Positions 21,729 to 45,925 of a stretch of 64,000 nucleotides of DNA are shown here, piece by piece. The notes beneath the pieces are model-generated. The model searched no databases and had not been told where the DNA came from. It worked only from the letters and a program-made list of their open reading frames with translations. Source of the DNA: Gammaproteobacteria bacterium (GTDB taxonomy: Bacteria; Pseudomonadota; Gammaproteobacteria; Ga0077536). The DNA lies in the NCBI GenBank assembly GCA_050184115.1, contig JBFXAQ010000013.1, positions 44,674-108,673 on the forward strand, given 5' to 3'. The position numbers and the translations under genes were made by a program. Position 1 is the stretch's first letter; the number at the start of each line of letters is the position of its first letter.

Positions 21729-22022
21729 ATGACCTGCATGGTTCACATCGAGTTTCGCGCCAGCGCCGAAACCATCGACCAGATGCTCGCCTGGCTGCGC
21801 GAGATCCTGCCGGACACCCGCGCACGTGAAGGCTGCGTCTCGGTCGCGGTGACGCGCAACCAGGACGACCCGACCAACTTCGCCTTCGTCGAGCTGTGGG
21901 AGAGCCGCGCGCACTACGAGCGCTACTTCGCCTGGCGCGAGGAGACCGGTGTGCTGGCGGAGCTCGCCAAGCTGGTCGACGGCGAGGCGAGTTTCCGCTT
22001 CTTCGACATCGTCGGGTTGTAG
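21729..22022 (+). CDS. Antibiotic-biosynthesis-monooxygenase (ABM) domain protein
   Basis: About 97 aa with a ferredoxin-like ABM pattern (MVHIEF...FVELWESRAHYERYFAW). GAGGAGG RBS before the ATG at 21729. Confidence 0.65.
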   Translation: MTCMVHIEFRASAETIDQMLAWLREILPDTRAREGCVSVAVTRNQDDPTNFAFVELWESRAHYERYFAWREETGVLAELAKLVDGEASFRFFDIVGL

Positions 22023-33469: not shown

Positions 33470-33629
33470 CGGTCATTCCACGAATGTGAGGCGGGGCACC
33501 AATCGTATACCGGCGATCGCGCCAGTGGGAATCCGTGTGCGCCGTCGAAACAGCGTATGACCGCAGACTAACAGCCGCTATTCGAGCGGGAGGGGCTGCC
33601 AGGCGGCCGGGTCCGTTTGCGCAATTTGA

Positions 33630-33750
33630 GGACAGACCACGGTTTGCGTAGCAGCGGCATAGCCGGCGAACGAGGGGGGGAGGCCGCTTTACTGAACCGT
33701 CGGCTGGCAAACGGATGAGCCGGCGTGTCGCTAAATCGTGGTCTGTCCCC
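33630..33750. repeat. MITE/REP-like element, family A copy 2: GGACAGACCACGGTTTGCG ... GCTAAATCGTGGTCTGTCCCC
   Basis: 19-21-bp terminal inverted repeats flanking about 80 bp. Lies between the PEP-CTERM gene start and the cupin gene end. Confidence 0.6.
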
Positions 33751-33768
33751 GAATAAATTCCGCAGGCG

Positions 33769-34254
33769 CTATTTCTCGAGGTACTGATCGAACGCCGCGT
33801 CGAAATGACTGCCGTCACCGAGCGGCTGCGCGCGTATGACCACTCCCAGCATGACGGCCGGTTCGTCGCCGATGGCCGACCAGCTGTGCATGACGCCGCG
33901 ATCGACAACGACGTCGCCGGCAGCGAGCTCGACCTCGCCTGCTTCGAGCGCGAGCCGCACCCGACCGGTCAGCACGACCACGTAGTCGAGCGTATCGGTC
34001 TGGTGCCAGGCCGGCGGCGTACCGGGTTGCTGCGTGAACAGCACGCAGAAACTCGACTTCTTGAAGGTGTCGAGGGTGAGGGGCGTGGCGGCTTCGGCAT
34101 TGCCGGCGTTGCTGGGCGGATAGTCGTCGCTCTGCCAGACGATCGCGGGATCGCCGCCACAGGCTGCGATCTGCTCGAGCGCGGCATCGGAAATCACGCA
34201 CGATTTCCCGTTGTCGTCGAGGCCGGTGACTACCCGGCGATTCTTGAAGGTCAT
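33769..34254 (-). CDS. Cupin-domain protein
   Basis: Conserved cupin barrel region (WHQTDTLDYVVVLTGRVRLALEAGEVELAAGDVVVDRGVMHSW). Start at MTFKNRRVV with a GGAGA RBS. Confidence 0.65.
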   Translation of the reverse strand: MTFKNRRVVTGLDDNGKSCVISDAALEQIAACGGDPAIVWQSDDYPPSNAGNAEAATPLTLDTFKKSSFCVLFTQQPGTPPAWHQTDTLDYVVVLTGRVRLALEAGEVELAAGDVVVDRGVMHSWSAIGDEPAVMLGVVIRAQPLGDGSHFDAAFDQYLEK

Positions 34255-34303
34255 GGGCTCATCTCCACTTGCCAATCGAGTCGGCGATACCGACGGGGAA
34301 TCC

Positions 34304-34387
34304 GCGGGAATCCGGGGACAGACCACGATTTATCCGGCCCAGGATTGACCCGGCCGGGGCCGGTGGAATCCGGGGACGAATATCGTG
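34304..34387. repeat. MITE/REP-like element, family A copy 3: GGGGACAGACCACGATTTAT ... GAATATCGTGGTCTGTCCCC
   Basis: 20-bp terminal inverted repeats (2 mismatches) flanking 44 bp. Lies inside the operon between the SDR and cupin genes. Confidence 0.6.
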
Positions 34388-34438
34388 GTCTGTCCCCGAT
34401 TAAAAGACGGGCGGACGTCGGACGCGACTGCGAACTGC

Positions 34439-35242
34439 TCAGGTATCCAACTCGATCGTCGCCAGATCGACCGCGCTGCCGCCGCCGTCGACGACCATCG
34501 TGTGGCCGGTCACCATGGCGGCATCGCTGGACGCCAGGAAGGCGCACACGGCGGCGATCTCTTCGGGCTGCGAGATGCGTCGCAGCGGGATGTGGCGGGT
34601 CGAGCGGGCCAGGGCTTCCTCGACGGTGATGCCGTCGCGCTGGGCGAGGTAGGCGATGGTGCCGTCGGCGAGCGCGGTCTTGGTCCAACCCGGGCACAGC
34701 GCATTCACGCGCACACCTTGTGGGCCGAACTCGCGCGCCAGCCAGCGCGCGAGCCCGACGATGCCGTGCTTGGCCGCGGTATAGCCGAGGCCGCCGACCG
34801 GGCCGGCGAAGAGCCCGGCGGTGGAGGCGATCAGCACCGCCGAGCCCTTGCGCTCGACCAGGTGCGGCATGGCCTCGCTGACCAGGTAGTAGGGGCCACT
34901 CAGGTTCACGTCCAGCCCGCGCAGCCACTTCTTGTCGCCGCGCGCGGTGGGTACGTCGCCGGTCACCGCGCCCTGGGTGGCGATGACGGCGTCGAGGCCG
35001 CCGTAGGTCGCGACGGTCTTGGTCACCACTTCGTTGAGCGCTTCGCGCGAAGTGCCGTCGGCGGGCAGCGCGAGGGCGCCGATGTCGTCAGCGAGCGCCG
35101 TGAGTGCCTCGGCGTTGATGTCGGTCACGGCGAGCTTGACGCCTTCGGCGGCGAAGCGGCGCGCGGTGGCCGAGCCGATGCCGCCAGCGGCGCCGCTGAC
35201 CAGGGCGACCGCGGGCATGGTGCGGCGATAGGGGTCGTTCAT
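34439..35242 (-). CDS. SDR-family oxidoreductase
   Basis: GAAGGIG, NAL, and catalytic S..Y...K (YTAAKHG). Confidence 0.85.
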   Translation of the reverse strand: MNDPYRRTMPAVALVSGAAGGIGSATARRFAAEGVKLAVTDINAEALTALADDIGALALPADGTSREALNEVVTKTVATYGGLDAVIATQGAVTGDVPTARGDKKWLRGLDVNLSGPYYLVSEAMPHLVERKGSAVLIASTAGLFAGPVGGLGYTAAKHGIVGLARWLAREFGPQGVRVNALCPGWTKTALADGTIAYLAQRDGITVEEALARSTRHIPLRRISQPEEIAAVCAFLASSDAAMVTGHTMVVDGGGSAVDLATIELDT

Positions 35243-35279
35243 GGGTTCTGCTCCAGGTGGGGCGGCGTACCGTCGGGCA

Positions 35280-35603
35280 TCAGCTCACGCGTTCGGTGAT
35301 GGCGGTGAACATCTGCATCGAGATGCTGGCGCGATCGAGGGTGTCGCTCATGTGCAGATGCGGCAGGGCGGCCTTGAGGGCGTCGAGTGCCGCGGCCGGA
35401 TCGCCTTCCACCTCGTACAGGGCGAGGTAGCCGTGCGCACCCGCGCCGCCCATCTGCGCCGGCGCGAGCGCGAAGCGTTGCGCGGCGACGAAGCCCGGCA
35501 CCGCGACGACTTCCTGGATGTGCACGTTCGAGTACCAATCGTTGAAGGCCTCTTCCTGGCCGGGGACCGGGTTCGTCAGCACCATCAATACACTCTTGCT
35601 CAT
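35280..35603 (-). CDS. EthD-family small protein (dimeric alpha+beta barrel)
   Basis: 107 aa. N-terminal MSKSVLMVLTNPVPGQEEAFNDWYSNVHIQEVVAVPGFVAAQRF matches the EthD pattern (EEF..W...H......PG...RF). RBS AGGAGA. The track ORF extends upstream without support. Confidence 0.5.
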   Translation of the reverse strand: MSKSVLMVLTNPVPGQEEAFNDWYSNVHIQEVVAVPGFVAAQRFALAPAQMGGAGAHGYLALYEVEGDPAAALDALKAALPHLHMSDTLDRASISMQMFTAITERVS

Positions 35604-35652
35604 GGATGTCTCCTGCAGGCGGTCAGGGTGTTCGGTTGCGTGTTCGACGACG

Positions 35653-36897
35653 CTAGATGACCTTGGCTGCGCGTAACTCGGCGAGCTCGTCGACGTCGAG
35701 GCCGAGCAGGCCGCCGTAGACGGCGCCATTGGCCGAGCCGAGCACGGGCGCAGGTTCGTCGAACTGGGCATGGCAGGCGGAGAAGTGGATCGGCAGGCCC
35801 ATGCCGGCAGCGCCCATCGCGCCGTGCGTCGGGTGTTCGAGATCGACCACCGCGCCGCGTGCGCGCAGCTGCGGGTCGTGCAGCACCTCGTCGGGGGTGC
35901 GCACCGGGGCACAGGGGATGCGACGCTTGTCCTGGAGCTCGGCCAGGATCTCGGCATTGGTGTGCGTGCGCGTCCAGGCCTCGACGATGGCATTCAATTC
36001 GGCGGCATGTTTCATGCGCGGCCCGCGGGTGGCGAAGCGCGGGTCCGCGGCCAGTTCGCTGCGACCGAGCACGTCGAGCAGGCCGGCGAACCACTCGGCG
36101 GTCATGGCCGCGATGGCGACGTAGCCGTCCTTGCTCGGATAGACCCCGAACGGCACCAGGCGGTCGTGGTAGTTGCCCGAGCGCCGCGCGTAGCCCGCTT
36201 GCTCGAAGACGTCGAAGTGCTCCTCGGCGAGCAGCGAGGCGAGACAGTCGAGCATCGAAACCTCGACATACTGGCCTTCGCCGGTGCGGCCACGGTGGAT
36301 CAGCGCGGCGAGGATGCCGTTGACGGCGAACAGCGGCGCGATGAGATCGGCGAATGGTACACCGCAGCGGGTCGGCGGGCCGTCGGCGAAACCGGTCACC
36401 TCCATCAGGCCGCTCAAGGCCTGCACGATGATGTCCATGCCCTTCAGGCCCGGTACCACGCTGGGATCGCCGAAAGCGCTGATCGAGGCATAGACGATGC
36501 GCGGGTTGTGTGCCTTGAGCGCTTCGTAACCGACGCCGAGGCGCTTCGCCGTGCCCTCGCTCATGTTCTCGACCACGACGTCGACTTCCTGCGCCAGCCG
36601 GTAGAGCAGTTCGCGGCCGCGCTCGCTCTTGAGATCGAGCGTGATGCTCTGCTTGTTGCGCGAGCGGTTGAGGTAGGAGATGGAGACGTCGTCGGCTTCC
36701 GCCACGCCGAAGTGGATGCCGTCGGCGCCGACGAAGGGCGGGTTGGTGCGCGCGATGTCGCTGCCACCCGGCGCCTCGACGCGGATGACCTCGGCACCCA
36801 GGCCGCCGAGCAGCATGGTGCCGTAGGGACCGGCCAGCGCCACGGTGAGATCGAGGACGCGGATGCCGGCAAGGGGGCGGGCGAGGGCGGGGATCAT
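35653..36897 (-). CDS. Family III CoA-transferase (CaiB/BaiF family; itaconate/succinyl-CoA transferase-like)
   Basis: LAGIRVLDLTVALAGPYGTMLLGGLGAEVIRVE N-terminus and full-length family collinearity. Confidence 0.9.
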   Translation of the reverse strand: MIPALARPLAGIRVLDLTVALAGPYGTMLLGGLGAEVIRVEAPGGSDIARTNPPFVGADGIHFGVAEADDVSISYLNRSRNKQSITLDLKSERGRELLYRLAQEVDVVVENMSEGTAKRLGVGYEALKAHNPRIVYASISAFGDPSVVPGLKGMDIIVQALSGLMEVTGFADGPPTRCGVPFADLIAPLFAVNGILAALIHRGRTGEGQYVEVSMLDCLASLLAEEHFDVFEQAGYARRSGNYHDRLVPFGVYPSKDGYVAIAAMTAEWFAGLLDVLGRSELAADPRFATRGPRMKHAAELNAIVEAWTRTHTNAEILAELQDKRRIPCAPVRTPDEVLHDPQLRARGAVVDLEHPTHGAMGAAGMGLPIHFSACHAQFDEPAPVLGSANGAVYGGLLGLDVDELAELRAAKVI

Positions 36898-36930
36898 GCG
36901 GATTGCTCCCGTGCTGGCACTGGCCTGGCG

Positions 36931-38121
36931 TCAGTAGGACTTCGGCAGGCCCAGCACCTTGTTCGAAATGAAGTTCAGCACCATCTCCTGCGACACCGGC
37001 GCCAAGCGGAGCAGGCGCACTTCGCGCCACAGGCGCTCGATGTGGTACTCCTTGGCGTAAGCGTAACCGCCATGCGTCTGCATGGCCTGGTCGCAGGCCT
37101 GGAAGCCGGCATCGGCGCCGAGGAACTTGGCAGCGTTCGATTCGGGTCCGCACGGCTTGCGCGCATCGTAGAGTTCCGCCGCGCGCATGGCGATGGCCTC
37201 GGCCGCCTCGAGCCGGATCCAGCGCTCGGCGAGCGGGTGGGCGACGGCCTGGTTCTTGCCGATGGGGCGATCGAAGACGATGCGCGAGTTGGCGTACTCG
37301 CAGGCGAGATCGAGCGCCGCGCGGCCGATACCGGTGCCTTCCACGCCGACCACGATGCGCTCGGGATTCAAGCCGTCGATGAGGTACTCGAAACCCTTGC
37401 CGACCTCGCCGACGACGTCCTCGTGGGCGACTTCGAGGCCGTCGATGAAGACCTCGTTGGAATCGACCGGCGCGCGGCCGAGCTTGTCGATCACGCGCAC
37501 GTCGCAGGCCTTGCGGTCGAGGTCGGCGACGAACAGCGTCATGCCGTCGAACGGGCGCTTCTCGTCGCGCGGCGAGGTGCGGGCGAGGAGCAGGATCTTG
37601 TTGGCGTTCTGCGCGTTGGTGGTCCACACCTTCTGGCCGTTGATGATCCAGCGATCACCCTTGCGTTCGGCGCGGGTGGTGATGCGCGAGGTGTCGACCC
37701 CGGCGGTCGGCTCGGTGACGCCGAAAGCCAGCAGCAGCTTGCCCTGCGCCATGCGCGGCAGGATGCGCGCTTTGAGGTCGGCCGAGCCGTGGCGCAGGAT
37801 GGGCTGCGGCGGAAAGACGTAGAAATGCACCGCCGAGGCGCCGCTCATGCCGGCGCCGGAACGCGCGATCTCGTGCAGCATGATGGCCGCTTCGGTCACG
37901 CCGAGATCCATGCCGCCGTATTCCTCCGGCAGCAGGATGCCGAGCCAGCCGCCGTCGGCGAAGGCGTTGACGAAGTCCCAGGGGTATTTCTCGGCCTTGT
38001 CGCACTCGCGCCAGTAGCTCAAGGGAAAGCTGCGCGCGAGCTTGGCCGCGGCTTCGCGGATTTCGTTCAACTCGGCGGCGCGCGCCTCGGCGGCGCGGGC
38101 GTAGTCGGTGGCGGTCGTCAT
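36931..38121 (-). CDS. Acyl-CoA dehydrogenase
   Basis: ACAD motifs (FGVTEPTAGVD, INGQKVWTTN, catalytic Glu region YAKEYHIERLWRE). Start at MTTATDYARA. The track ORF runs 330 codons further upstream, which is unsupported. Confidence 0.9.
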   Translation of the reverse strand: MTTATDYARAAEARAAELNEIREAAAKLARSFPLSYWRECDKAEKYPWDFVNAFADGGWLGILLPEEYGGMDLGVTEAAIMLHEIARSGAGMSGASAVHFYVFPPQPILRHGSADLKARILPRMAQGKLLLAFGVTEPTAGVDTSRITTRAERKGDRWIINGQKVWTTNAQNANKILLLARTSPRDEKRPFDGMTLFVADLDRKACDVRVIDKLGRAPVDSNEVFIDGLEVAHEDVVGEVGKGFEYLIDGLNPERIVVGVEGTGIGRAALDLACEYANSRIVFDRPIGKNQAVAHPLAERWIRLEAAEAIAMRAAELYDARKPCGPESNAAKFLGADAGFQACDQAMQTHGGYAYAKEYHIERLWREVRLLRLAPVSQEMVLNFISNKVLGLPKSY

Positions 38122-38162
38122 GGTGTGGCTCCGGGTTCGATTGCTGTCTGGGTGCGCATGAC

Positions 38163-39053
38163 TCACGCGCTCATCGAGGCGGCGAGTTCGATGACTTCGC
38201 GCGCGGTGGCGACGTGGGCGATGTCGATGTGCTCGCCGTCGTACATGCACGAAGCCCGGCCTTCGGCGACCGCTTTCTCGTGCGCTTCGATCATGCCCCG
38301 GTAGTAGGCGACCTCGTCGGCCGAGGGGCTGAAGGCCTGGTTGGCGATGGCGACGTTGGAGGGATGCAGCAACAGTTCGCCGGTCATGCCGAGTTCGCGG
38401 CTGGCAAGGAGAAAGTCGCGCAGGCCGTCGAGGTTCTTGACCTGCTGCCAGATGCCGCCGATGGGCAGCTTGCCGGCGGCACGCGCGGCCATCACCACGC
38501 GCGACTTGAAGTACAGCGATTCGCGCCCGCCGGCCGTCCACACGTAGCCGAGGGCGCGTTCGGTGTCGGCGTTCTTCGCCGTCGCGCCGACCAGGAAGGC
38601 GACGCGGTCGATCTGCGCGATCTCGTAGCAGAGTTCCATCGAGCGCGCCGTCTCGAGCAGCGGCGCGACCCGCGTGGTACCTATCGCCATGCCCTGGCGG
38701 AACTCGGCCTCGGCCAGCATCATCGAGATGCAATGGACGTCCTCGGGGCCGTTGGTCTTGGAGATGAACACACCTTCGAGATGCGGGCCGACGACGGCGA
38801 GGACGTCGTCGAAGTCGTACATGTGCGGGCTGCGGTTGACGCGCACCCAGGTGCGCTGACCCTGCGCGGCCAGCCACGGCAGCTTGTCGGTGACGATGGC
38901 GCGCGCTTCGAGCTTCTGGTCCAGCGGCACGCTGTCCTCGAGGTCGAGGATGAGGGCATCGGCGCCGGCTCCGACCGCCTTCTCGATCATCGAGGCCTTG
39001 TTGCCGGGCACGAACAGGAAGGATCGGACACGTTTCGTCGTTGCGGTGCTCAT
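38163..39053 (-). CDS. HpcH/HpaI aldolase / citrate-lyase-beta (CitE)-like CoA-ester lyase (citramalyl/malyl-CoA lyase family)
   Basis: RSFLFVPGNK...ADALILDLEDSV...ISKTNGPEDV motifs of CitE-like lyases. RBS GAGGAG. Confidence 0.8.
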   Translation of the reverse strand: MSTATTKRVRSFLFVPGNKASMIEKAVGAGADALILDLEDSVPLDQKLEARAIVTDKLPWLAAQGQRTWVRVNRSPHMYDFDDVLAVVGPHLEGVFISKTNGPEDVHCISMMLAEAEFRQGMAIGTTRVAPLLETARSMELCYEIAQIDRVAFLVGATAKNADTERALGYVWTAGGRESLYFKSRVVMAARAAGKLPIGGIWQQVKNLDGLRDFLLASRELGMTGELLLHPSNVAIANQAFSPSADEVAYYRGMIEAHEKAVAEGRASCMYDGEHIDIAHVATAREVIELAASMSA

Positions 39054-39349
39054 CGGTTGCGGTACTCCTCTGCGGGCGTGGTGCGCAGCACCCGGGTGGC
39101 GCAATGCACGTCGTCAAAGCTAGCGAGCCCTACCGCGTGCGCCAAGCGCAAAGTGGAGAAACGGGGATTCTTCGATGGCGAAGTCGTGGCCGCGCCGGTG
39201 CGCGGCACGATTCGCGTTCGGCGAAGCAGGCGGTTTCGAATCGGCAATTGCCAGCCGTGCGGTCGCTTCCTAAGCTGCGCCAGGTGGTTGTGCCGACGCC
39301 AAGCCCGACCGGCCAACGAACAATCCCGGGAGCCGCACTCTTGAGCGCC

Positions 39350-40756
39350 ATGCAAGCCGTTTCGAGCCCCACGCCAGATTGCCCGCCGCTCGAAGCGGCG
39401 GTGGTCGGCCTCGTCCAGAACCTGGCCTTCGAGCATCTCGACGCGGCGGCCCACGCCGGGGTCAACCGCCTCATGCGCGACCAGCTCGCGCTGCAGGTCG
39501 GCATCGCGCAGATGCCGTGGTCGCAGCAGCTCCTCGCCTACGCCCGCGCCCAGCTCCGCCCCGGGACGAGCCGGGTGGTCGCGAGCGACCTTACCCTGGC
39601 GCCCGCCGATGCCGCCTTCGTCAACGCGAGCTACGGCCACGGGTTCGAGTACGACGATGCCCACGGGCCCAGTGCCAGTCACCCTGGCAGCTGCGTGATC
39701 CCAGCCGCGCTCGCCATCGGGGAAGCACTCGACGCCACCCTCGCCGAGGTCATCACGGCGATGGTCGCCGGTTACGAGGTCTACGCGCGTATCGGCGTGC
39801 TGGCCGCGCCGGATCTCCTCAAGCGCGGTTTCCACCCGCACGCCGTCTTGTCGAACTTCGGCGCCGCGGCCGTCGCCGCACGGCTGCGCGGGCTCGACGC
39901 CGAGGCCACCCTGCATGCGCTCGCCATCGCGCTCAGCCACGCCTCGGGTACGACCGAGTACTCTTCGACCGGCGGTTCGATCAAGCGTCTGCATGCCGGC
40001 ATCGGCACCCGCAACGGCATGCTCGCCGCCGACATGGCCGCCGCCGGCATCACCGGTCCGCGCGCTTTCCTCGGTGGTAACAAGGGCTTCTTCCGCACCT
40101 TCCTGCAGCGCGGTGCGGGCGACGACGCACCGGCCGCCTTCGCCCTCGAGCGGCCGTTCGAAGTCGGCACGGCGTGGCTCAAGGCCTATTGCGCCTGCTA
40201 TTGCACGCATGCCTACATCGACGCCCTGCGCCCGTTCGCCGCGCGGGTCGACGCAGTGAGCGCGATCGAAGCGCGCATCCACCCGGCGTTCGACGTCGTC
40301 GTCGGTTCCGGCAATGCCAACGCCTACCGACCCCGCAACATCGAGCAGGTCCAGTTCAGCCTGCCGGCGCAAGCCGCCTTCACCCTGCTCGGATACGGCA
40401 ATGGTTACCGTGTCCATCGCGACTACCTCGACGGCAAGCTGGACATGGGCCCGGTGCTCGAGCTGGCCGAGCGCGTTGCCATCACGGCCGCGCCGGATCT
40501 CGAGGCGCGCTACCCGGGCAAGTTCGTCGCCGACGTCACCGTGCGCTTCCGCGACGGCGGTGCGGAGCAGGTTTTCGTCGAGGACCCCATCGGCACCGAC
40601 CTCAACCCGATGCCGGCGGCCGAGCAGGATGCCAAGTTCCTCGAACTGACCACCGACGTGCTCGGCGCCGGGCGCGCCGAGGCCCTGCTGGGCGTGCTCC
40701 ACGATCTCGACCCAACGATGCGCGTGAGCGATCTCATGGCCATGTGCATGCCCTGA
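39350..40756 (+). CDS. MmgE/PrpD-family protein
   Basis: 468 aa collinear with 2-methylcitrate-dehydratase/IRG1-family proteins (GHGFEYDDAHGPSASHPGS...). The start is uncertain: first in-frame ATG after a distant GGGAG. Divergent from the CitE-like gene. Confidence 0.75.
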   Translation: MQAVSSPTPDCPPLEAAVVGLVQNLAFEHLDAAAHAGVNRLMRDQLALQVGIAQMPWSQQLLAYARAQLRPGTSRVVASDLTLAPADAAFVNASYGHGFEYDDAHGPSASHPGSCVIPAALAIGEALDATLAEVITAMVAGYEVYARIGVLAAPDLLKRGFHPHAVLSNFGAAAVAARLRGLDAEATLHALAIALSHASGTTEYSSTGGSIKRLHAGIGTRNGMLAADMAAAGITGPRAFLGGNKGFFRTFLQRGAGDDAPAAFALERPFEVGTAWLKAYCACYCTHAYIDALRPFAARVDAVSAIEARIHPAFDVVVGSGNANAYRPRNIEQVQFSLPAQAAFTLLGYGNGYRVHRDYLDGKLDMGPVLELAERVAITAAPDLEARYPGKFVADVTVRFRDGGAEQVFVEDPIGTDLNPMPAAEQDAKFLELTTDVLGAGRAEALLGVLHDLDPTMRVSDLMAMCMP

Positions 40757-40796
40757 ACGTCGCGCCGGGTCGTCACGGCCCGATCATGCGCCCGCC

Positions 40797-41867
40797 TCAG
40801 AACTCGAACACCGCCTTGCCGCGGGTCTGTTTGTCGAACTCGGCATAGGCCTGCGCGGCGTCCTCCAGCTGCCAGCGATCGCTGAACAGGCGGTCGACGT
40901 CGATGCCGTGGTCGGCGACGAAGCGCACGCATTCGCCGAGACCGACGTTGGAGAACGTGTAGGAGCCGAAGATGGTGACCTGCTTGATGACGATGTCCGG
41001 CGAGGCATCGAGTTCGAGGTTGCCGCCGAGCCCGACCAGCACCACCCGGCCCCAGCGCCCGAGCGCCTTGGTCGCCGCGGCGCGCGCCGCCGGCACCCCG
41101 GCGCACTCGAGCGCGACGCTGGCGCCCTGGCCGCCGGTCAGTTCGCGGATCGCCGCCACCGGGTCGTCGTGGCTGGCATCGACGACGTGATGCGCCCCGA
41201 GCGCCTGCGCGGTGGCGAGGCGTTCGGCGGCGACGTCGACGGCGATGACCCGCGCGCCCATCACGCGTGCGAACTGGATCGCCGACTGCCCGATGGGGCC
41301 GAGGCCGAACACCGCCAGCGTGTCGAGGCCGTTGACGTCGGCGCGGCGCAGCGCGGCGAAGGCCGTGCCCGTGCCGCAGCCGATCGCGGCGCCGGCCGCA
41401 AAGCTGATTTCGTCCGGCAGGTGGACCAGGGTGTTGGCGGGGGCGAGCATGTAGTGGGCGTGTCCGCCGTGCGCGGTGGCGCCGTAGATGGTGGCGCCGG
41501 TCGCGCACATCTGTGTCCAGCCGCCGCGGCAGGAATCGCACACGCCGCAACCGCTGTAGTGGAACTGCACGACGCGGTCGCCGACCTTGAACGTGCGCGG
41601 GTCGACTCCGGTGCCGACCGCGGCGACGATGCCGCAGGGCTCGTGACCGGCGATGATCGGCGGCACCTCGGCCAGCCCGCGCGCAGCGAAGTCCTTGAAG
41701 CCGAGTGCGGCCAGCACGACCTCGGGCGGTTCGCGGTAGAATTTGAGATCGCTGCCGCAGAGGCCCGAGGCCTTGATCTCGATCACGACCTCGTTCGGGC
41801 CCGGCGTGGGGTCGGGAAAATCTCGCACCTCCAGCACGCGGTTGCCCTTGAACACCACCCCGCGCAT
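40797..41867 (-). CDS. Zinc-dependent alcohol dehydrogenase (MDR family)
   Basis: GHEPCGIV catalytic-Zn motif. Structural-Zn cysteines CGVCDSC. Rossmann GLGPIGQ. Confidence 0.9.
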   Translation of the reverse strand: MRGVVFKGNRVLEVRDFPDPTPGPNEVVIEIKASGLCGSDLKFYREPPEVVLAALGFKDFAARGLAEVPPIIAGHEPCGIVAAVGTGVDPRTFKVGDRVVQFHYSGCGVCDSCRGGWTQMCATGATIYGATAHGGHAHYMLAPANTLVHLPDEISFAAGAAIGCGTGTAFAALRRADVNGLDTLAVFGLGPIGQSAIQFARVMGARVIAVDVAAERLATAQALGAHHVVDASHDDPVAAIRELTGGQGASVALECAGVPAARAAATKALGRWGRVVLVGLGGNLELDASPDIVIKQVTIFGSYTFSNVGLGECVRFVADHGIDVDRLFSDRWQLEDAAQAYAEFDKQTRGKAVFEF

Positions 41868-42403
41868 CAGCGCACCCCCTTCATCATCGTGGCGACGACC
41901 ACGCAGGGCTCGTTGGTGCGGTTGCTCCAGATGTGCCGCACACCGCGGTTGACGATGGTGTCACCGGCCTTGAGCAGGGTTTCGGCGCCCTCGAGCACTG
42001 CGTAGACCTCGCCCGAGATCACGGTGACGACGTCGACGGTGTCGGTCTGGTGCCACAGGCCGCCGCCGTCGGCTGCCGCGGACTCGCCGTGCGCATCCTC
42101 GCCGTGGAAGGCGTCGAGGGAGGCTGCGTAGGCCGCCGGGTCGAACTCCGAGTCCGGCGGGAAAGCGGCCACACGCACGACCAGGCCCTGCGGCGGCGGG
42201 TCGATCACGGGCTCCGTGCCCAGCGTCGATGTGCCCATGAGCGGCGTCGGCAGGCGGTCGACCTGCCACAACTCGCAGACGGTGAAACCGGGCGTGGCCA
42301 CGCGCACCGCCGAATCGGCGTCGCTGACGATGGTCGATCGGCCATCCTCGTCGAGTCCCGAGACGACCAGTCGCGCCTGGGTGTCGAGGTGTGCTCCTGC
42401 CAT
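41867..42403 (-). CDS. Cupin-domain protein
   Basis: Cupin barrel (WHQTDTVDVVTVISGEVYAVLEGAETLLKAGDTIVNRGVRHIW). Paralogous to the cupin at 33769. Stop overlaps the ADH start by 1 nt. RBS AAGGAG. Confidence 0.65.
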   Translation of the reverse strand: MAGAHLDTQARLVVSGLDEDGRSTIVSDADSAVRVATPGFTVCELWQVDRLPTPLMGTSTLGTEPVIDPPPQGLVVRVAAFPPDSEFDPAAYAASLDAFHGEDAHGESAAADGGGLWHQTDTVDVVTVISGEVYAVLEGAETLLKAGDTIVNRGVRHIWSNRTNEPCVVVATMMKGVR

Positions 42404-42734: not shown

Positions 42735-43874
42735 ATGACCACCGACATCACCCCGTTCCGTATCGCCATACCCCAGCGCGCCCTCGACGACCTTGCGCAG
42801 CGCCTGGCGTTGACGCGCTGGCCGGAACCGGAGTTGGTCGCGGACTGGAGCCAGGGCGTGCCAGCGGCGTGGCTGCGGCGGGTATTCGACTACTGGCGGG
42901 ACGATTACGACTGGCGCGCGCGCGAGGCGGCGCTCAACCGTTTCGATCACTACACCACGCCTGTTGACGGTCTCGACATCCATTTCATCCACCAGCGCTC
43001 GCCGCACCCGGGCGCCCGACCGCTGCTGATCACGCACGGCTGGCCGGGTTCGATCGTCGAGTTCCACAAGGTCATCGAGCCGCTGGTCGACCCGGTCGCG
43101 CACGGCGGTGACGCCGCCGACGCCTTCCATGTCATCTGTCCGAGCCTGCCGGGCTACGGCTTCTCGGGTAAACCGGCGGTGCCGGGCTGGGGCGTGGAGC
43201 GCATCGCCGGGGCCTGGGCGGCGCTGATGGCCCGCCTCGGCTACTCGAGCTACCTCGCCCAGGGCGGCGACTGGGGCTCGGCGGTGACCCAGGTGCTCGG
43301 CTGGCAGGACGCCGCGCACTGCGCCGGCATCCACGTCACCCTCGCCATGAGCACGCGCCCCGCCATCGAGGGCGAACCAACGCCCGCGGAACAGCGCGCG
43401 CTCGACGGCCTCGCCTACTACCGCCAGTGGGATGCCGGTTATTCGAAGGAACAGGCGACGCGGCCGCAGACGATTGGCTATGCCCTGACCGATTCGCCGC
43501 TCGGCCAGGCGGCCTGGATCCTGGAGAAGTTCTGGGCCTGGACCGATTGCGACGGCGACCCCTTGAACGTCCTGTCGCTGGACGAACTCCTCGACAACCT
43601 CATGCTGTACTGGTTGACCGCCTCGGCGGCCTCCTCGGCGCGGCTCTACTGGCAGAGCTTCGGCCGCGTCGAGCGCAAACCCATCGAAGTGCCGACCGGG
43701 GTCGCGGTCTATCCGAAGGAGATCGTGCCGCCGGTGCGCGCCTGGATGGAGGCCGGTGACTACCGCAACATCGTGCACTGGGCGGAGATGCCGCGCGGCG
43801 GGCATTTCGCGGCCTTCGAGCAGCCGGCGCTGTACGTCGACGACGTGCGGGCGTGGGCGCGCAAACTGCGTTGA
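42735..43874 (+). CDS. Epoxide hydrolase (microsomal-EH-type N-terminal domain plus alpha/beta-hydrolase fold)
   Basis: EH_N domain (IAIPQRALDDLAQRLALTRWP). HGWPGS oxyanion motif. Nucleophile GGDWGS. Confidence 0.9.
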   Translation: MTTDITPFRIAIPQRALDDLAQRLALTRWPEPELVADWSQGVPAAWLRRVFDYWRDDYDWRAREAALNRFDHYTTPVDGLDIHFIHQRSPHPGARPLLITHGWPGSIVEFHKVIEPLVDPVAHGGDAADAFHVICPSLPGYGFSGKPAVPGWGVERIAGAWAALMARLGYSSYLAQGGDWGSAVTQVLGWQDAAHCAGIHVTLAMSTRPAIEGEPTPAEQRALDGLAYYRQWDAGYSKEQATRPQTIGYALTDSPLGQAAWILEKFWAWTDCDGDPLNVLSLDELLDNLMLYWLTASAASSARLYWQSFGRVERKPIEVPTGVAVYPKEIVPPVRAWMEAGDYRNIVHWAEMPRGGHFAAFEQPALYVDDVRAWARKLR

Positions 43875-44033
43875 AGGGCGGCGCGGCCAGTCAGCACGGC
43901 AGGCGCGGCCCGCTGCCCTGAGGATTGCTCGCCGCCGTTGCGGCGGGCGGCGTGACGCCGCACACTCCGACCACCGCGTGGCGGCCCCCGCCGGCGCCGG
44001 TTGTCGCTGTTCACCACACGAGGAGGAGCGTCC

Positions 44034-44891
44034 GTGAACCGTCTGAGCCCAGCCCTGTTCGCCACCCTGGCCCTGCTGTTACTGAGCCTCGCCGCCGTCC
44101 CGGCGCTGGCCGACGGCACCATCAAGCTCTACCAGGTCTCGAGCGGTACGCTCAAGCTCGACAAGGGCTATCTCACCGCCATGCGCGACGTCGGCAAGAT
44201 CGTCGAAGTACCGGTCGCCATGTACATCATCGATCACCCGCGCGGGCTGGTGGTCTACGACACCGGCAACAACGTCGCCGTCTCCGACGGCCAGTGCGAG
44301 CAGCACTGGGGCAAGATGTGCAGCTCGTCCTACCCGACCCAGAAGCGCGCCGACGTCATCGACAAGCAGTTGGAGCGCTTTGGCTACAAGACCAGCGACG
44401 TCAAGTACGTCATCGTCTCGCACATGCATCTCGACCACGGCGGCAACATCGAGATGTTCCCCAACGCGACCATCGTCGTGCAGAAGGACGAGATGAAGAC
44501 CGCGTGGTGGCCGGAGAAATACCAGCGCGGGGTGTTCGTGCTGGCCGATTACGACGACGCGCGTAACTTCAACTACCTGGAGCTGACCGGCGACTTCGAC
44601 CTCTTCGGCGACGGATCGCTGGTGGTGCTCGACACCAAGGGCCATACCCAGGGCCACCAGTCGCTGATGGTGAAGTTGAAGAACACCGGCACGCTGCTGC
44701 TCGCGGGTGACGCGGTCTACACGCCGGAGAACGAGGCCGGGGTGATTCCGGGCATCACCTGGAACACCTACATGTCGATGGAATCGATCAACCGCCTGAA
44801 GATGCTGCGCGATGCTCACCAGGGCGAGCTGTGGTTCTCACACGGCGCCGAGCAGTACGACCAGCACAAGCACGACGCCTACTACGACTGA
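44034..44891 (+). CDS. Secreted MBL-fold metallo-hydrolase, N-acyl-homoserine-lactonase-like
   Basis: Signal peptide VNRLSPALFATLALLLLSLAAVPALA. Zn motif SHMHLDHGG (HxHxDH). GTG start 5 nt after AGGAGGAG. The track ORF begins at an upstream TTG. Confidence 0.7.
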   Translation: MNRLSPALFATLALLLLSLAAVPALADGTIKLYQVSSGTLKLDKGYLTAMRDVGKIVEVPVAMYIIDHPRGLVVYDTGNNVAVSDGQCEQHWGKMCSSSYPTQKRADVIDKQLERFGYKTSDVKYVIVSHMHLDHGGNIEMFPNATIVVQKDEMKTAWWPEKYQRGVFVLADYDDARNFNYLELTGDFDLFGDGSLVVLDTKGHTQGHQSLMVKLKNTGTLLLAGDAVYTPENEAGVIPGITWNTYMSMESINRLKMLRDAHQGELWFSHGAEQYDQHKHDAYYD

Positions 44892-44983: not shown

Positions 44984-45925
44984 TCACGACGGCGTGTCGG
45001 GCGTGCGCGCGGAGGCCGTGATCTGGGCGACGAAGGCCTCCGCGGCCGGTGACAGGGCCTGCCCGGCGAGGTAACCGATGCGGTAGCTGCGTTCGGCCCA
45101 CTCGCCCTCGACCGGCAGGGTCACGACCTGGTCGCGATCGTCGGCCGTGGCCATGCTGGCCGGTTGCAGGGCGACGCCGAGGCCGGCGCGTACGAGGCTG
45201 CGCGCGGCATCGACCGTGCTCACGGTGAAGCGCACGCGCGGTTCGCGGCCGACGGTGAGCGCGGCGTGGCGCAGCTGACTCATGATGGTCGTGCTCTCGC
45301 CGAGGCTGACGAGATCCTGGTCGAGCAGGTCGGCCAGGGTCACGCCGGCCGCCTGTGCGAGCGGGTGGCCGAGCGGCACCACCGCGGCAAGGCGGTCGCT
45401 GCGGCACTCGAAGCTCTCGATGCCCTCGTAGGCCGCGCCCTCGACGTGGGAGAAGAGGGCGAAATCGACCTCGCCGTCGCGCAGCGCGCGCAGCACCTCG
45501 GCATTGGTCGCGTTGAGCAGGGTGACTTCGACCTGCGGAAAGCGCTGGGCGAACTCGCCGAGTTCGCGGGCCAGGAACTGCACGATCATGATGCCCGGCG
45601 CGGCCACGCCGACATGGCCGCGCACGCCTTCGGACAATTCGGCGAGGTCGCGCCGCAGGTCCTCCAGGGTCGCCAGCATGTTGCGCACGTGGCGCTCCAC
45701 CACCCGCCCGGCCGGGCTCGGCACCACGCCGCGCGCGGAGCGATCGAAGAGCTTCAAGCCGAGCAGGTCCTCGAGATCCTGGATGCGCTTGGTCGCCGCC
45801 GAGGCGGCGAGGTGCTCGCGGAAGGCCGCGCGCCCGATCTGGCCTTCCTCGACGGCGGCGAGGAACAGTTTCAGCGTGAACAGGTCGACGCGGCGGATGA
45901 GGGACTGCACGGACAGGTTGGACAT
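44984..45925 (-). CDS. LysR-family transcriptional regulator
   Basis: N-terminal HTH (LFTLKLFLAAVEEGQIGRAAFREHLAASAATKRIQDLEDLLGLKLFDRS) followed by the LysR substrate-binding domain. Divergent from the operon at 46211. Confidence 0.9.
   Translation of the reverse strand: MSNLSVQSLIRRVDLFTLKLFLAAVEEGQIGRAAFREHLAASAATKRIQDLEDLLGLKLFDRSARGVVPSPAGRVVERHVRNMLATLEDLRRDLAELSEGVRGHVGVAAPGIMIVQFLARELGEFAQRFPQVEVTLLNATNAEVLRALRDGEVDFALFSHVEGAAYEGIESFECRSDRLAAVVPLGHPLAQAAGVTLADLLDQDLVSLGESTTIMSQLRHAALTVGREPRVRFTVSTVDAARSLVRAGLGVALQPASMATADDRDQVVTLPVEGEWAERSYRIGYLAGQALSPAAEAFVAQITASARTPDTPS

What the first reader, a model, noticed from the sequence alone, without database searches (positions are those of the whole stretch)
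33769..40756. C5-dicarboxylate (itaconate/mesaconate/methylsuccinate-like) CoA-ester catabolic cluster with an accessory EthD-SDR-cupin module
Minus-strand operon: CitE-like lyase, acyl-CoA dehydrogenase, family III CoA-transferase, EthD, SDR, (MITE), cupin. A divergent MmgE/PrpD-family gene lies upstream. Established knowledge (from memory): the Pseudomonas aeruginosa itaconate locus PA0878-PA0883 combines a MaoC-like hydratase (Ich), a family III CoA-transferase (Ict), a CitE-like citramalyl-CoA lyase (Ccl), an acyl-CoA dehydrogenase and an MmgE/PrpD-family protein. Here the MaoC-like hydratase is absent from the cluster but a MaoC / CoA-transferase / NMO unit lies at 18570-21499. Inference: the split arrangement and extra redox genes suggest a variant pathway, for example for a substituted or alkylated dicarboxylate.
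Basis: partly seen in the sequence, partly recalled or inferred. Interest (0 to 1): 0.5.

Follow-up and report, generated by a model that had tools for sequence, protein, structure and literature searches.

The report
Rearranged branched-dicarboxylate CoA-ester catabolic gene cluster
This is an ordinary-looking bacterial gene cluster for breaking down a small dicarboxylic acid through CoA esters; it is a scrambled copy of a widespread but uncharacterised sister of the known itaconate/methylsuccinate pathway, so its exact substrate is unknown.

Summary
The minus strand carries a CitE-like lyase, an acyl-CoA dehydrogenase, a family III CoA-transferase, a 107-aa protein, an SDR and a cupin. An MmgE/PrpD gene lies divergently upstream.

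Two labels need softening:
- "EthD" holds only at fold level. There is no Pfam hit; the AlphaFold model is a ferredoxin-like barrel whose best match is an EthD-family structure.
- The "MITE" is a REP-like palindrome. It has three copies in the window, and two of them bracket the cupin.

The proteins are paralogues, not orthologues, of the P. aeruginosa itaconate/methylsuccinate enzymes: 30-44% identity, and no NCBIfam cutoff is reached.

They are orthologues (61-87%) of a conserved uncharacterised operon, lyase-MaoC-dehydrogenase-transferase with a LysR regulator. That operon occurs in Cupriavidus, Paraburkholderia, Pseudomonas and gammaproteobacterial MAGs.

The window has lost the in-operon MaoC. 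The regulator, a CoA ligase and a second PrpD paralogue are also dispersed.

The SDR is conserved in one close relative. The 107-aa protein and the cupin are not conserved in any locus examined.

Verdict: a rearranged member of a known kind of pathway, substrate undetermined, modest interest.

The parts
38163..39053 (-). CitE-like acyl-CoA lyase (296 aa), first gene of the operon
   Evidence: Pfam HpcH_HpaI, 4.6e-33. DLEDSV and HPS motifs align with malyl-CoA lyase and CitE. 68-85% identical orthologues in L003, L005, L007, L008 and L016. Forms its own clade in the NJ tree.
36931..38121 (-). Acyl-CoA dehydrogenase (396 aa) of the Mcd-like subfamily
   Evidence: Three ACAD Pfam domains. 44% identical to PA0879 Mcd. 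Shares LNxER and APxS (in place of YEGT) with PA0879. 77-87% identical orthologues in the same operon elsewhere.
35653..36897 (-). Family III CoA-transferase (414 aa)
   Evidence: Pfam CoA_transf_3, 2.7e-113. 35% identical to Ict PA0882. Best NCBIfam hits are succinate-glutarate and succinyl-CoA:mesaconate transferases, both far below cutoff. 61-77% identical orthologues in the operon.
35280..35603 (-). 107-aa ferredoxin-like (Dabb superfamily, EthD-like fold) protein; a lineage-specific insertion
   Evidence: No Pfam hit; DUF4286 is sub-threshold. 22 homologues, all annotated as hypothetical. AF2 pLDDT 92.5. Foldseek top hit is the EthD-family structure 2ftr. Absent from all related loci.
34439..35242 (-). 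Short-chain dehydrogenase/reductase (267 aa)
   Evidence: Pfam adh_short_C2, 7e-54. No NCBIfam cutoff reached. A 78% identical orthologue follows the transferase in L007.
34314..34397 (.). REP/MITE-like palindromic element, copy B, between SDR and cupin
   Evidence: 17-nt perfect inverted arms. Hairpin -67.3 kcal/mol, z -7.2. Core motif recurs 8 times against 0.68 expected.
33769..34254 (-). Cupin_2 protein (161 aa), bracketed by two palindromic elements; a lineage-specific addition
   Evidence: Pfam Cupin_2, 1.9e-9. 31% identical to the second cupin at 41867-42403. No homologue in related loci.
33628..33750 (.). REP/MITE-like palindromic element, copy A, downstream of the cupin
   Evidence: hairpin z -2.9.
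39142..39186 (.). Conserved 45-nt block with dyad CTTCGCCATCGAAG, 89-133 bp upstream of the lyase start; candidate LysR operator/promoter
   Evidence: About 85% identical to the block upstream of the lyase in L007, with weaker matches in L016 and L003. The rest of the intergenic region does not align.
39350..40756 (+). MmgE/PrpD-family protein (468 aa), divergent from the operon
   Evidence: Pfam MmgE_PrpD_N and _C. 30% identical to Msi PA0881. Keeps the equivalents of H88, E91, H102, H152, K202 and K266 but lacks Tyr148. 73% identical orthologues lie next to the same operon in Cupriavidus (L003) and next to a canonical Mcd-Ich-Ict-Ccl cluster in Caballeronia RPE67 (L012). Nearest solved relatives are IDS epimerase and cis-aconitate decarboxylase.
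40797..41867 (-). Zn-dependent alcohol dehydrogenase (356 aa), in the segment between the regulator and the operon
   Evidence: Pfam ADH_N and ADH_zinc_N. Not found in related loci.
41867..42403 (-). Second Cupin_2 protein (178 aa), paralogue of the first; its stop codon overlaps the ADH start by one base
42735..43874 (+). Epoxide-hydrolase-like alpha/beta hydrolase (379 aa)
   Evidence: Pfam EHN, 7.7e-42.
44001..44891 (+). MBL-fold lactonase-like protein (296 aa)
   Evidence: Pfam Lactamase_B. NCBIfam AttM/AiiA lactonase models, 191 and 152 bits, both below cutoff.
44984..45925 (-). LysR-type regulator, orthologue of the regulator directly upstream of the lyase in close relatives
   Evidence: Pfam HTH_1 and LysR_substrate. 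78% identical to the L007 regulator, 70% to L016 and 48% to L003, all adjacent to the lyase operon. 30% identical to PaItcR.
18570..19040 (-). Single-domain MaoC (R)-hydratase (156 aa), the displaced hydratase of the pathway
   Evidence: Pfam MaoC_dehydratas and MC_hydratase. 61% identical to the in-operon hydratase of L003, 77% to L016 and 85% to L007. The same hydratase type abuts even distant CitE-like lyases in six metagenome loci. Nearest characterised relatives are RipB/Ich and beta-methylmalyl-CoA dehydratase.
19225..20367 (-). Second family III CoA-transferase (380 aa)
   Evidence: Pfam CoA_transf_3, 2.5e-89. 53-67% identical orthologues next to or near the operon in L005, L008, L007, L003 and L012.
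20414..21739 (-). NMO/FabK-like flavoprotein upstream of the second transferase; membership of the pathway is uncertain
   Evidence: Pfam NMO, 3e-71. No counterpart in related loci.
49438..51432 (+). Acs-like CoA ligase, orthologue of the ligase at the 3' end of the Pseudomonas cluster
   Evidence: Pfam ACAS_N and AMP-binding. 60% identical to the ligase at L005 16108-18018.
51429..52889 (+). Second MmgE/PrpD paralogue (486 aa); its start overlaps the ligase stop by 4 bp
   Evidence: Pfam. 79% identical orthologue lies divergently next to the LysR-lyase operon in L007, and a 68% orthologue lies near the operon in L005. Lacks the H88 and H152 equivalents.

Best explanation
The locus encodes a LysR-controlled, CoA-dependent route for a small dicarboxylic acid built on a succinate backbone. 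The substrate is methylsuccinate- or mesaconate-like, and its exact identity is unknown.

Proposed steps:
1. The 414-aa family III transferase moves CoA from succinyl-CoA onto the acid.
2. The Mcd-like acyl-CoA dehydrogenase introduces the 2,3-double bond.
3. A single-domain MaoC hydratase adds water. In this genome it has been displaced 15 kb away, to 18570-19040, next to a second transferase.
4. The CitE-like lyase splits the 3-hydroxyacyl-CoA into a short acyl-CoA plus a 2-oxo acid (pyruvate or glyoxylate).

The divergent MmgE/PrpD protein most likely converts a related free acid into the form the transferase accepts.

What is shown: protein family membership, orthology to a conserved operon, the displaced hydratase, and the dispersal of the gene set. 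What is inferred: every chemical step and the substrate class.

The locus is a rearranged member of a widespread but uncharacterised paralogue of the itaconate/methylsuccinate cluster, not that cluster itself. The SDR belongs to the operon in at least one relative. The 107-aa EthD-like-fold protein and the cupin are lineage-specific additions of unknown role.
For: - Family assignments.
- Tight 33-49 bp spacing and ATG/SD starts from lyase to SDR.
- Conserved operon lyase-MaoC-ACAD-transferase, with 61-87% identical orthologues, in Cupriavidus (L003), Paraburkholderia (L004), Pseudomonas (L005) and MAGs (L007, L008, L016).
- The regulator orthologue (70-78%) sits directly upstream of the lyase in L007 and L016, and a 45-nt upstream block is retained in the window.
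- The ACAD is 44% identical to the biochemically characterised methylsuccinyl-C4-CoA dehydrogenase PA0879 and shares its unusual active-site motifs; enzyme data in PMC12290011.
- The hydratase is nearest to mesaconyl-CoA hydratases and RipB/Ich.
- The lyase carries the CitE-family catalytic motifs.
- The PrpD protein keeps the six residues that bind a 1,4-dicarboxylate in this family (PMC12290011). Its 73% orthologue sits beside a canonical Mcd-Ich-Ict-Ccl cluster in Caballeronia.
- Carboxylate transporters (TctC, MFS, OprD) flank the operon in other genomes.
Against: - No protein reaches an equivalog cutoff, and none is closer than 44% to a characterised enzyme. The substrate therefore rests on analogy.
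- The hydratase is not in the operon, and co-regulation with the distal unit is untested.
- No promoter or terminator signal stands out above background.
- The lyase is equidistant from Ccl, malyl-CoA lyases and CitE, so the cleavage products cannot be predicted.
- The PrpD protein lacks the second catalytic base (Tyr148) proposed for methylsuccinate isomerase.
- The presence of an SDR in the operon, and of MaoC-ACAD-SDR-transferase clusters with a 74% identical ACAD but no lyase (L010), shows that this dehydrogenase type also works in lyase-free, beta-oxidation-like contexts.
Confidence: 0.6

Rival explanations
1. It is a genuine itaconate/methylsuccinate degradation cluster, functionally the same as PA0878-PA0883 and C. 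necator operon1, in a different gene order.
For: - Same five protein families plus a LysR regulator.
- The ACAD is 44% identical to Mcd with shared motifs.
- The hydratase's best NCBIfam model is RipB/Ich.
- In C. necator, residual itaconate and methylsuccinate conversion persists after all close Ict/Ich/Ccl homologues are deleted, so unidentified enzymes exist (PMC13491972).
- The Cupriavidus orthologous operon lies three genes from a LysR that is 51% identical to PaItcR.
Against: - Identity to Ict, Ccl, Msi and ItcR is only 30-35%, and there is no detectable similarity to Ich PA0878.
- RipC_Ccl scores 102 bits against a cutoff of 375, and RipB_Ich 105 against 340.
- Genomes such as Cupriavidus and Caballeronia carry both this operon type or its PrpD and a canonical cluster (PMC12290011). 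That argues for a different specificity.
- The Tyr148 of Msi is missing.
Confidence: 0.15
2. The operon is the lower pathway of a larger island for alicyclic, terpenoid or lactone compounds. Baeyer-Villiger monooxygenases, lactonase, epoxide hydrolase, alcohol dehydrogenases and hydantoinase-like enzymes would open rings to give branched dicarboxylates. The CoA-transferase, dehydrogenase, hydratase and lyase set would then dismantle those dicarboxylates.
For: - The window is dense in such genes: two FMO/BVMO-like proteins (26123-27739 and 28665-30707), a luciferase-like monooxygenase, an MBL lactonase-like protein, an epoxide hydrolase, a Zn-ADH, SDRs, a Rieske oxygenase, two CoA ligases and HyuA/HyuB.
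- HyuA/HyuB and the PrpD2-hydrolase genes stay within 1-15 kb of this lyase lineage in three genomes: the window, L007 and L014.
Against: - In Cupriavidus and Pseudomonas the core operon occurs without BVMO, lactonase, epoxide hydrolase or HyuAB, and with dicarboxylate-type transporters instead.
- The ADH, cupins, epoxide hydrolase and lactonase-like genes have no counterparts in related loci.
- Co-location in a catabolic island is weak evidence of a shared pathway.
Confidence: 0.2
3. The lyase and its neighbours serve central metabolism, for example as a malyl-CoA/beta-methylmalyl-CoA lyase for glyoxylate or acetate assimilation, or as citrate lyase.
For: The best solved-structure hits of the lyase are malyl-CoA lyases and D. 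radiodurans CitE (96-106 bits), slightly above PA0883 Ccl (74 bits).
Against: - Identity to those enzymes is only 29-33%, and the lyase falls outside their clade.
- TIGR01588 citE scores 147 bits against a cutoff of 443, and the haloarchaeal malyl-CoA lyase model 54 against 500.
- No citrate lyase alpha or gamma subunits, crotonyl-CoA carboxylase/reductase or mutases are nearby.
- The operon is LysR-linked and patchily distributed, as catabolic operons typically are.
Confidence: 0.05

Closest known systems
Pseudomonas aeruginosa PA0878-PA0883 / Cupriavidus necator operon1 itaconate-methylsuccinate degradation cluster (Ich, Mcd, Msi, Ict, Ccl; Sasikaran 2014 from memory; PMC9875883; PMC12290011; PMC13491972)
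   Same: Same protein families and same predicted order of reactions: family III CoA-transferase, FAD acyl-CoA dehydrogenase, MaoC-type hydratase, CitE-like lyase, MmgE/PrpD protein and LysR regulator. The dehydrogenase shares the LNxER / APxS motifs of PA0879.
   Different: Identities are 35% (Ict), 44% (Mcd), 30% (Ccl), 30% (Msi) and 30% (ItcR). The hydratase is a 156-aa single hot-dog protein, not the 275-aa PA0878 type, and shows no BLAST hit to it. It is not in the operon. The PrpD protein lacks Tyr148. There is no VOC/2-hydroxyparaconate lactonase. Extra SDR, Dabb-fold protein and cupin genes are present.
Uncharacterised operon lyase-MaoC-ACAD-CoA-transferase(-second transferase) with LysR and MmgE/PrpD neighbours in Cupriavidus (L003), Paraburkholderia (L004), Pseudomonas (L005) and proteobacterial MAGs (L007, L008, L016)
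   Same: Orthologous proteins: lyase 68-85%, ACAD 77-87%, transferase 61-75%, hydratase 55-85%, second transferase 53-59%, LysR 48-78%, PrpD 73% and PrpD2 68-79%. A shared block lies upstream of the lyase.
   Different: In the window the set is dispersed over about 34 kb. The hydratase and second transferase lie 15 kb away. The regulator is separated from the lyase by a 5.9-kb segment carrying PrpD, ADH, cupin, epoxide hydrolase and lactonase-like genes. The ligase and PrpD2 lie 10-13 kb on the other side. A Dabb-fold gene and a cupin have been added.
Mesaconyl-CoA module of the 3-hydroxypropionate bi-cycle, ethylmalonyl-CoA pathway and methylaspartate cycle (Mch/Meh hydratases, Mct or succinyl-CoA:mesaconate transferase, Mcl lyase; PMC5592240 and own knowledge)
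   Same: The hydratase's best solved relatives are beta-methylmalyl-CoA dehydratase/mesaconyl-CoA hydratase. The lyase's best solved relatives are malyl-CoA/beta-methylmalyl-CoA lyases. Family III transferases are involved in both.
   Different: The hydratase is single-domain rather than a fused double hot-dog. All equivalog cutoffs are missed by a wide margin. The context is catabolic and LysR-linked, and no carboxylases or mutases are present.
Benzylsuccinate beta-oxidation (bbs operon: BbsEF transferase, BbsG dehydrogenase, BbsH hydratase, BbsCD SDR, BbsAB thiolase; own knowledge)
   Same: Activation of a substituted succinate by a family III transferase, then an ACAD, a hydratase and an SDR. 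BbsF is among the solved relatives of the transferase (177 bits). An SDR is present in the operon.
   Different: The operon has a CitE-like lyase and no thiolase. The hydratase is MaoC-type rather than crotonase-type. The relation is distant.

Membership tests
P. aeruginosa-type itaconate/methylsuccinate degradation cluster | (S)-citramalyl-CoA lyase Ccl (PA0883/RipC equivalog) | tested here: not met
   NCBIfam NF038242 RipC_Ccl scores 102.4 bits against a cutoff of 375. 30% identity to PA0883. Falls outside the Ccl clade.
P. aeruginosa-type itaconate/methylsuccinate degradation cluster | Itaconyl-CoA hydratase Ich encoded in the cluster | tested here: not met
   There is no MaoC gene between 33769 and 40756. 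The distal MaoC156 gives no BLAST hit to PA0878 at 1e-3. RipB_Ich scores 104.9 bits against a cutoff of 340.
P. aeruginosa-type itaconate/methylsuccinate degradation cluster | Itaconate CoA-transferase Ict orthologue (Pa and Cn enzymes are 60% identical, PMC12290011) | tested here: not met
   35% identity to PA0882. By contrast, the Caballeronia canonical cluster has a 66% orthologue.
P. aeruginosa-type itaconate/methylsuccinate degradation cluster | (RS)-methylsuccinyl-C4-CoA dehydrogenase Mcd | tested here: inconclusive
   44% identity to PA0879, the best characterised relative. Shares the LNxER and APxS motifs. True orthologues are 73-79% identical (PMC13491972). Activity is not testable here.
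P. aeruginosa-type itaconate/methylsuccinate degradation cluster | (S)-(R)-methylsuccinate isomerase Msi with the catalytic pair His102/Tyr148 | tested here: not met
   30% identity to PA0881. The His102 equivalent is present, but Tyr148 is replaced by Leu, Lys or Gln in the window protein and its 73% orthologues.
Conserved uncharacterised lyase-MaoC-ACAD-transferase operon (Cupriavidus/Pseudomonas/MAG type) | Orthologous lyase, dehydrogenase and 414-aa transferase in that order on one strand | tested here: met
   68-85%, 77-87% and 61-75% identity respectively, in the same order, in L003, L005, L007 and L008. L016 has the lyase and dehydrogenase in that order but no transferase orthologue above 36%.
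Conserved uncharacterised lyase-MaoC-ACAD-transferase operon (Cupriavidus/Pseudomonas/MAG type) | Single-domain MaoC hydratase inside the operon | tested here: not met
   Only 41 bp separate lyase and dehydrogenase. The orthologue (61-85%) lies at 18570-19040.
Conserved uncharacterised lyase-MaoC-ACAD-transferase operon (Cupriavidus/Pseudomonas/MAG type) | LysR regulator adjacent to the lyase | tested here: inconclusive
   The orthologue (78% to L007) is present but lies 5.9 kb from the lyase, at 44984-45925. The conserved upstream block is retained at 39142-39186.
CitE / HpcH_HpaI acyl-CoA lyase superfamily | Full-length Pfam PF03328 match with the Mg-binding DLED motif | tested here: met
   114.8 bits against a cutoff of 25, covering profile positions 1-221 of 221. 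DLEDSV aligns with DLEDAV and DLEDSV of the solved lyases.
EthD family (Pfam PF07110) | Sequence match to the EthD profile | tested here: not met
   No EthD hit even at E <= 10; only DUF4286 at 19.3 bits, below its cutoff of 25.8. Fold-level similarity only: 2ftr, E 7e-5, TM 0.62.
MITE (miniature inverted-repeat transposable element) | Terminal inverted repeats, multiple genomic copies and target-site duplications | tested here: inconclusive
   Inverted arms and three copies in the window are shown. No target-site duplication or empty site was identified. The element is equally compatible with a REP-type element.

The most novel reading that the evidence does not exclude
The widespread lyase-MaoC-ACAD-transferase operon is found in Cupriavidus, Paraburkholderia, Caballeronia, Pseudomonas and this MAG lineage. 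Together with its two Tyr-less MmgE/PrpD companions, it may encode a pathway for a branched or hydroxylated dicarboxylate that is not itaconate, methylsuccinate, mesaconate or citramalate. Candidates include a C6 homologue or a lactone/epoxide-derived acid such as a paraconate- or itatartarate-type compound. In that case the MmgE/PrpD proteins would catalyse a reaction new to that family. In this lineage the pathway would be fed by the neighbouring lactonase-like, epoxide-hydrolase, cupin and HyuAB genes.
Probability: 0.3. Interest if true: 0.55.

Novelty: new variant of a known kind. Interest (0 to 1): 0.3.

Why it matters
Branched C5-dicarboxylates such as itaconate and methylsuccinate matter in immunometabolism, in soil carbon turnover and as bio-based monomers. 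Recent work shows that C. necator still converts them after every recognisable Ict, Ich and Ccl homologue is deleted (PMC13491972).

The operon family identified here is a plausible home for such hidden activities, or for a sister substrate. It is present in cultured, genetically tractable bacteria, so the question can be tested directly.

The window itself adds little beyond showing how such a gene set can be scattered by rearrangement. That scattering is a caution for annotation pipelines that score pathways by gene adjacency.

Tried and rejected
- **Genome-contig scan** with the lyase. It returned only 3 loci, because the peptide patterns were too specific.
- **Metagenome-contig scan** with a 24-sequence alignment. 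It was useful only for showing the recurrent lyase-MaoC pairing.
- **Promoter/terminator scan** of 33300-46200. Counts were at or below shuffle expectation, so it is uninformative in this 68% GC DNA.
- **Direct look-up of the window transferase**. It gave only a 2-kb contig of the same organism.
- **Pfam and NCBIfam for the 107-aa protein**. No family was found, and contexts of its homologues (L017, L018) show no consistent link to CoA-ester genes. One of them is again followed by an SDR.
- **Mapping the Cupriavidus orthologous operon onto the H16 locus tags of PMC13491972.** A neighbouring LysR is 51% identical to PaItcR, as described for H16_RS25575. The supplementary tables are not held, so whether the operon responds to itaconate, methylsuccinate or mesaconate could not be read. 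The operon's ACAD is not Mcd2 (45% rather than 79% identical to PA0879).
- **Idea that the 387-aa ACAD group at 70-74% identity is canonical Mcd.** Rejected: its context is MaoC-ACAD-SDR-transferase without PrpD or lyase.
- **Idea of recent horizontal acquisition.** Rejected: GC is 0.68-0.70 across the cluster, like the rest of the window.

Full report
**Source and gene map.** The window is 65-72% GC. It comes from a gammaproteobacterial MAG: exact matches of its lyase and dehydrogenase are NCBI proteins on a 372,611-bp contig. GC3 periodicity and ORF analysis, together with Pfam, give the following genes.

- Minus strand:
  - cupin, 33769-34254
  - SDR, 34439-35242
  - 107-aa ORF, 35280-35603
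  - family III CoA-transferase, 35653-36897
  - acyl-CoA dehydrogenase, 36931-38121
  - CitE-like lyase, 38163-39053
- Plus strand: MmgE/PrpD protein, 39350-40756.

All six minus-strand genes start with ATG behind a GGAG-like site. The gaps from lyase to SDR are 41, 33, 49 and 37 bp, and the cupin follows after 184 bp. The distal MaoC (18570-19040), second CoA-transferase (19225-20367) and NMO-family gene (20414-21739) are also real.

**Two labels that need correcting.**

- *"EthD".* The 107-aa protein has no Pfam or NCBIfam match; only DUF4286 appears, below threshold. It is a genuine conserved gene with 22 homologues, all annotated as hypothetical. An AlphaFold2 model built on that alignment (pLDDT 92.5) is a beta-alpha-beta x2 ferredoxin-like fold. 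Its best PDB match is an EthD-family protein (2ftr, E 7e-5, TM 0.62). ABM monooxygenases, MhuD and 4-methylmuconolactone methylisomerase follow. "EthD-like fold, dimeric alpha/beta-barrel superfamily" is as far as the evidence goes.
- *"MITE".* The element is an imperfect palindrome with core GGGGACAGACCACGAT. Three copies lie in the window, at 30804-30861, 33628-33750 and 34314-34397. That gives eight core matches against 0.68 expected. The hairpins are very stable (-67 kcal/mol, z -7.2; -41 kcal/mol, z -5.9). Two copies bracket the cupin gene. No target-site duplication or empty site was found, so it could equally be a REP-type element.

**Comparison with the known itaconate/methylsuccinate system.** I recovered the P. 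aeruginosa locus (ItcR and PA0878-PA0883) from a P. aeruginosa record in the plasmid collection and compared proteins.

| Window protein | P. aeruginosa protein | Identity |
|---|---|---|
| 414-aa transferase | Ict PA0882 | 35% |
| Acyl-CoA dehydrogenase | Mcd PA0879 | 44% |
| CitE-like lyase | Ccl PA0883 | 30% |
| MmgE/PrpD | Msi PA0881 | 30% |
| LysR | ItcR | 30% |
| MaoC156 | Ich PA0878 | no hit |

No NCBIfam equivalog cutoff is approached: RipC_Ccl 102 of 375, citE 147 of 443, succinyl-CoA:mesaconate transferase 286 of 700, and RipB_Ich 105 of 340.

In a neighbour-joining tree the lyase and its orthologues form their own clade. That clade is 29-33% identical to Ccl, to malyl-CoA/beta-methylmalyl-CoA lyases and to D. 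radiodurans CitE alike. Orthology to Ccl is not met either.

The dehydrogenase is the one protein with a meaningful link to a characterised enzyme.

- It scores higher against PA0879 (308 bits) than against any solved ACAD (at most 215 bits).
- Like PA0879, it has APxS in place of the canonical YEGT catalytic-Glu motif, and a Glu in LNxER. From my own knowledge of ACADs, that Glu sits at the isovaleryl-CoA-dehydrogenase-type base position. This point is an inference.
- PA0879 and its C. necator counterpart are biochemically (RS)-methylsuccinyl-C4-CoA dehydrogenases (PMC12290011).

The MmgE/PrpD protein keeps the equivalents of H88, E91, H102, H152, K202 and K266. In this family those residues bind a 1,4-dicarboxylate (PMC12290011). 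The protein and its orthologues lack Tyr148, the proposed second base of the isomerase. Its nearest solved relatives are IDS epimerase and cis-aconitate decarboxylases, not 2-methylcitrate dehydratase.

**What the cluster really is.** The lyase has about 68-72% identical orthologues in Cupriavidus, Paraburkholderia, Caballeronia, Ramlibacter, Sphingobium and Pseudomonas. Gene contexts and tblastn with the window proteins show a conserved operon.

| Locus | Arrangement |
|---|---|
| Cupriavidus L003 | PrpD (73%) divergent; then LysR (48%), MaoC, lyase (68%), MaoC (61% to window MaoC156), ACAD (79%), transferase (67%), TctC |
| Pseudomonas L005 | lyase (69%), MaoC (55%), ACAD (77%), transferase (61%), second transferase (53% to the window's 380-aa enzyme), enoyl-CoA hydratase, Acs-like ligase (60% to window 49438-51432); a PrpD2 orthologue (68%) upstream |
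| MAG L007 (closest complete relative) | PrpD2 (79%) divergent; then LysR (78%), lyase (80%), ACAD (83%), transferase (75%), SDR (78%), MaoC (85%); second transferase (57%) convergent |
| MAG L016 | LysR (70%), lyase (85%), ACAD (87%), MaoC (77%), then other dehydrogenases |

This MaoC type also sits next to much more distant CitE-like lyases in six metagenome loci.

The adjacent 380-aa transferase belongs to the same conserved set.

**The window is a scattered version of that set.**

- The LysR orthologue (44984-45925) lies 5.9 kb from the lyase. The intervening segment carries PrpD, a Zn-ADH, a second cupin, an epoxide-hydrolase-like gene and an MBL lactonase-like gene. None of these except PrpD has a counterpart in related loci.
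- A 45-nt block with the dyad CTTCGCCATCGAAG survives at 39142-39186 upstream of the lyase. It is shared with L007, while the rest of the intergenic DNA does not align. It is a candidate operator.
- The ligase and PrpD2 lie at 49438-52889. In L007 the PrpD2-hydrolase pair and the 77-aa/HyuA/HyuB genes flank the operon. In L014 the HyuAB genes abut the lyase.

A gene set that spans about 16 kb in Pseudomonas is thus spread from 18.5 to 52.9 kb here. The region appears prone to rearrangement, possibly through the palindromic repeats; that last point is an inference.

**Mechanism.** The best-supported reading has four steps.

1. CoA is transferred from succinyl-CoA to a succinate-backbone dicarboxylate.
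2. The Mcd-like flavoenzyme carries out alpha,beta-dehydrogenation.
3. The displaced MaoC hydratase adds water.
4. The CitE-like enzyme performs a retro-aldol/Claisen-type cleavage, giving a short acyl-CoA and a 2-oxo acid.

A PrpD-family enzyme would tailor the free acid beforehand. Every chemical step is inferred from family membership and analogy; only the homology, the synteny and the dispersal are shown. The substrate cannot be named, for three reasons:

- The enzymes are paralogues of the itaconate/methylsuccinate enzymes.
- Genomes that carry this operon or its PrpD also carry a canonical cluster (PMC12290011).
- A 74% identical dehydrogenase also occurs in lyase-free MaoC-ACAD-SDR-transferase clusters.

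The operon SDR hints at an extra oxidation step. The Dabb-fold protein and the cupin have no assignable role.

**Rivals.**

- *True itaconate/methylsuccinate cluster, about 0.15.* It is kept alive by the unexplained residual C5-dicarboxylate conversion in C. necator deletion strains (PMC13491972).
- *Lower pathway of an alicyclic/lactone degradation island, about 0.2.* This is suggested by the BVMO, lactonase-like, epoxide hydrolase, ADH and HyuAB genes in the window. It is weakened by their absence from the Cupriavidus and Pseudomonas loci.
- *Central-metabolism malyl-CoA or citrate lyase, about 0.05.*

**Novelty and interest.** This is a new variant of a known kind of system. The enzyme families and pathway logic are familiar, and the specific operon family is widespread but uncharacterised. 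The window's copy is unusual only in being fragmented and decorated. A specialist would not be surprised.

The useful product is a pointer to a tractable uncharacterised operon in cultured Cupriavidus and Pseudomonas, with two Tyr-less MmgE/PrpD companions. That operon could explain residual branched-dicarboxylate metabolism or reveal a sister substrate.

Noticed in passing
window 30804-30861, 33628-33750, 34314-34397: A family of REP/MITE-like palindromic elements with core GGGGACAGACCACGAT and hairpins down to -67 kcal/mol. Two copies bracket the cupin gene, and one lies between a BVMO-like gene and the BenE transporter gene. They may mark rearrangement or insertion points.
   Followed up: partly
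window 51429-58258; L007 6255-8580 and 16028-20355; L014 11623-15911: A PrpD2, alpha/beta-hydrolase, 77-aa ORF, HyuA, HyuB string (hydantoinase/oxoprolinase family) stays within 1-15 kb of this lyase lineage in three gammaproteobacterial genomes, in different orders. A functional link to the CoA-ester operon is possible but unexplained.
   Followed up: partly
window 32144-33469 (-): A 441-aa protein with no Pfam hit. It contains repetitive G/N/D-rich beta-helix-like repeats and a C-terminus (…EPVPIPPSLALLGSA…RLARGRHR) that resembles a PEP-CTERM sorting signal. It sits in the lowest-GC stretch of the window (0.61).
   Followed up: no
window 23005-30707: A dense oxygenase block: a luciferase-like monooxygenase, a hybrid PAS histidine kinase/response regulator, two FMO/Baeyer-Villiger-like monooxygenases and an ArsR-rhodanese fusion regulator. 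It separates the displaced MaoC unit from the main cluster.
   Followed up: no
L012 (Caballeronia/Burkholderia sp. RPE67 plasmid p1, AP014579.1 831975-841032): A canonical-type cluster: Mcd 73%, Ich 45%, Ict 66% and Ccl 46% identical to the P. aeruginosa proteins, with ETF and ETF-QO genes inserted. The MmgE/PrpD gene beside it is an orthologue (73%) of the window's Tyr-less PrpD, not an Msi-like protein. This suggests that PrpD type also serves C5-dicarboxylate metabolism.
   Followed up: partly
L010/L011 8001-12301: A MaoC-ACAD-SDR-CoA-transferase-acetyl-CoA-hydrolase-family cluster whose ACAD is 74% identical to the window ACAD but which has no lyase. This dehydrogenase subfamily also works in beta-oxidation-like contexts.
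   Followed up: no
L002 13344-14804: In one Cupriavidus assembly an IS (DDE transposase) interrupts the 414-aa transferase gene of the orthologous operon. The gene is intact in a second assembly (L003).
   Followed up: no
window 35280-35603 and L018 8001-9237: The 107-aa Dabb-fold protein is followed by an SDR both in the window (37-bp gap) and in an unrelated metagenome contig, where a 43% identical homologue overlaps the SDR start. This may be a recurrent Dabb-SDR pair.
   Followed up: partly
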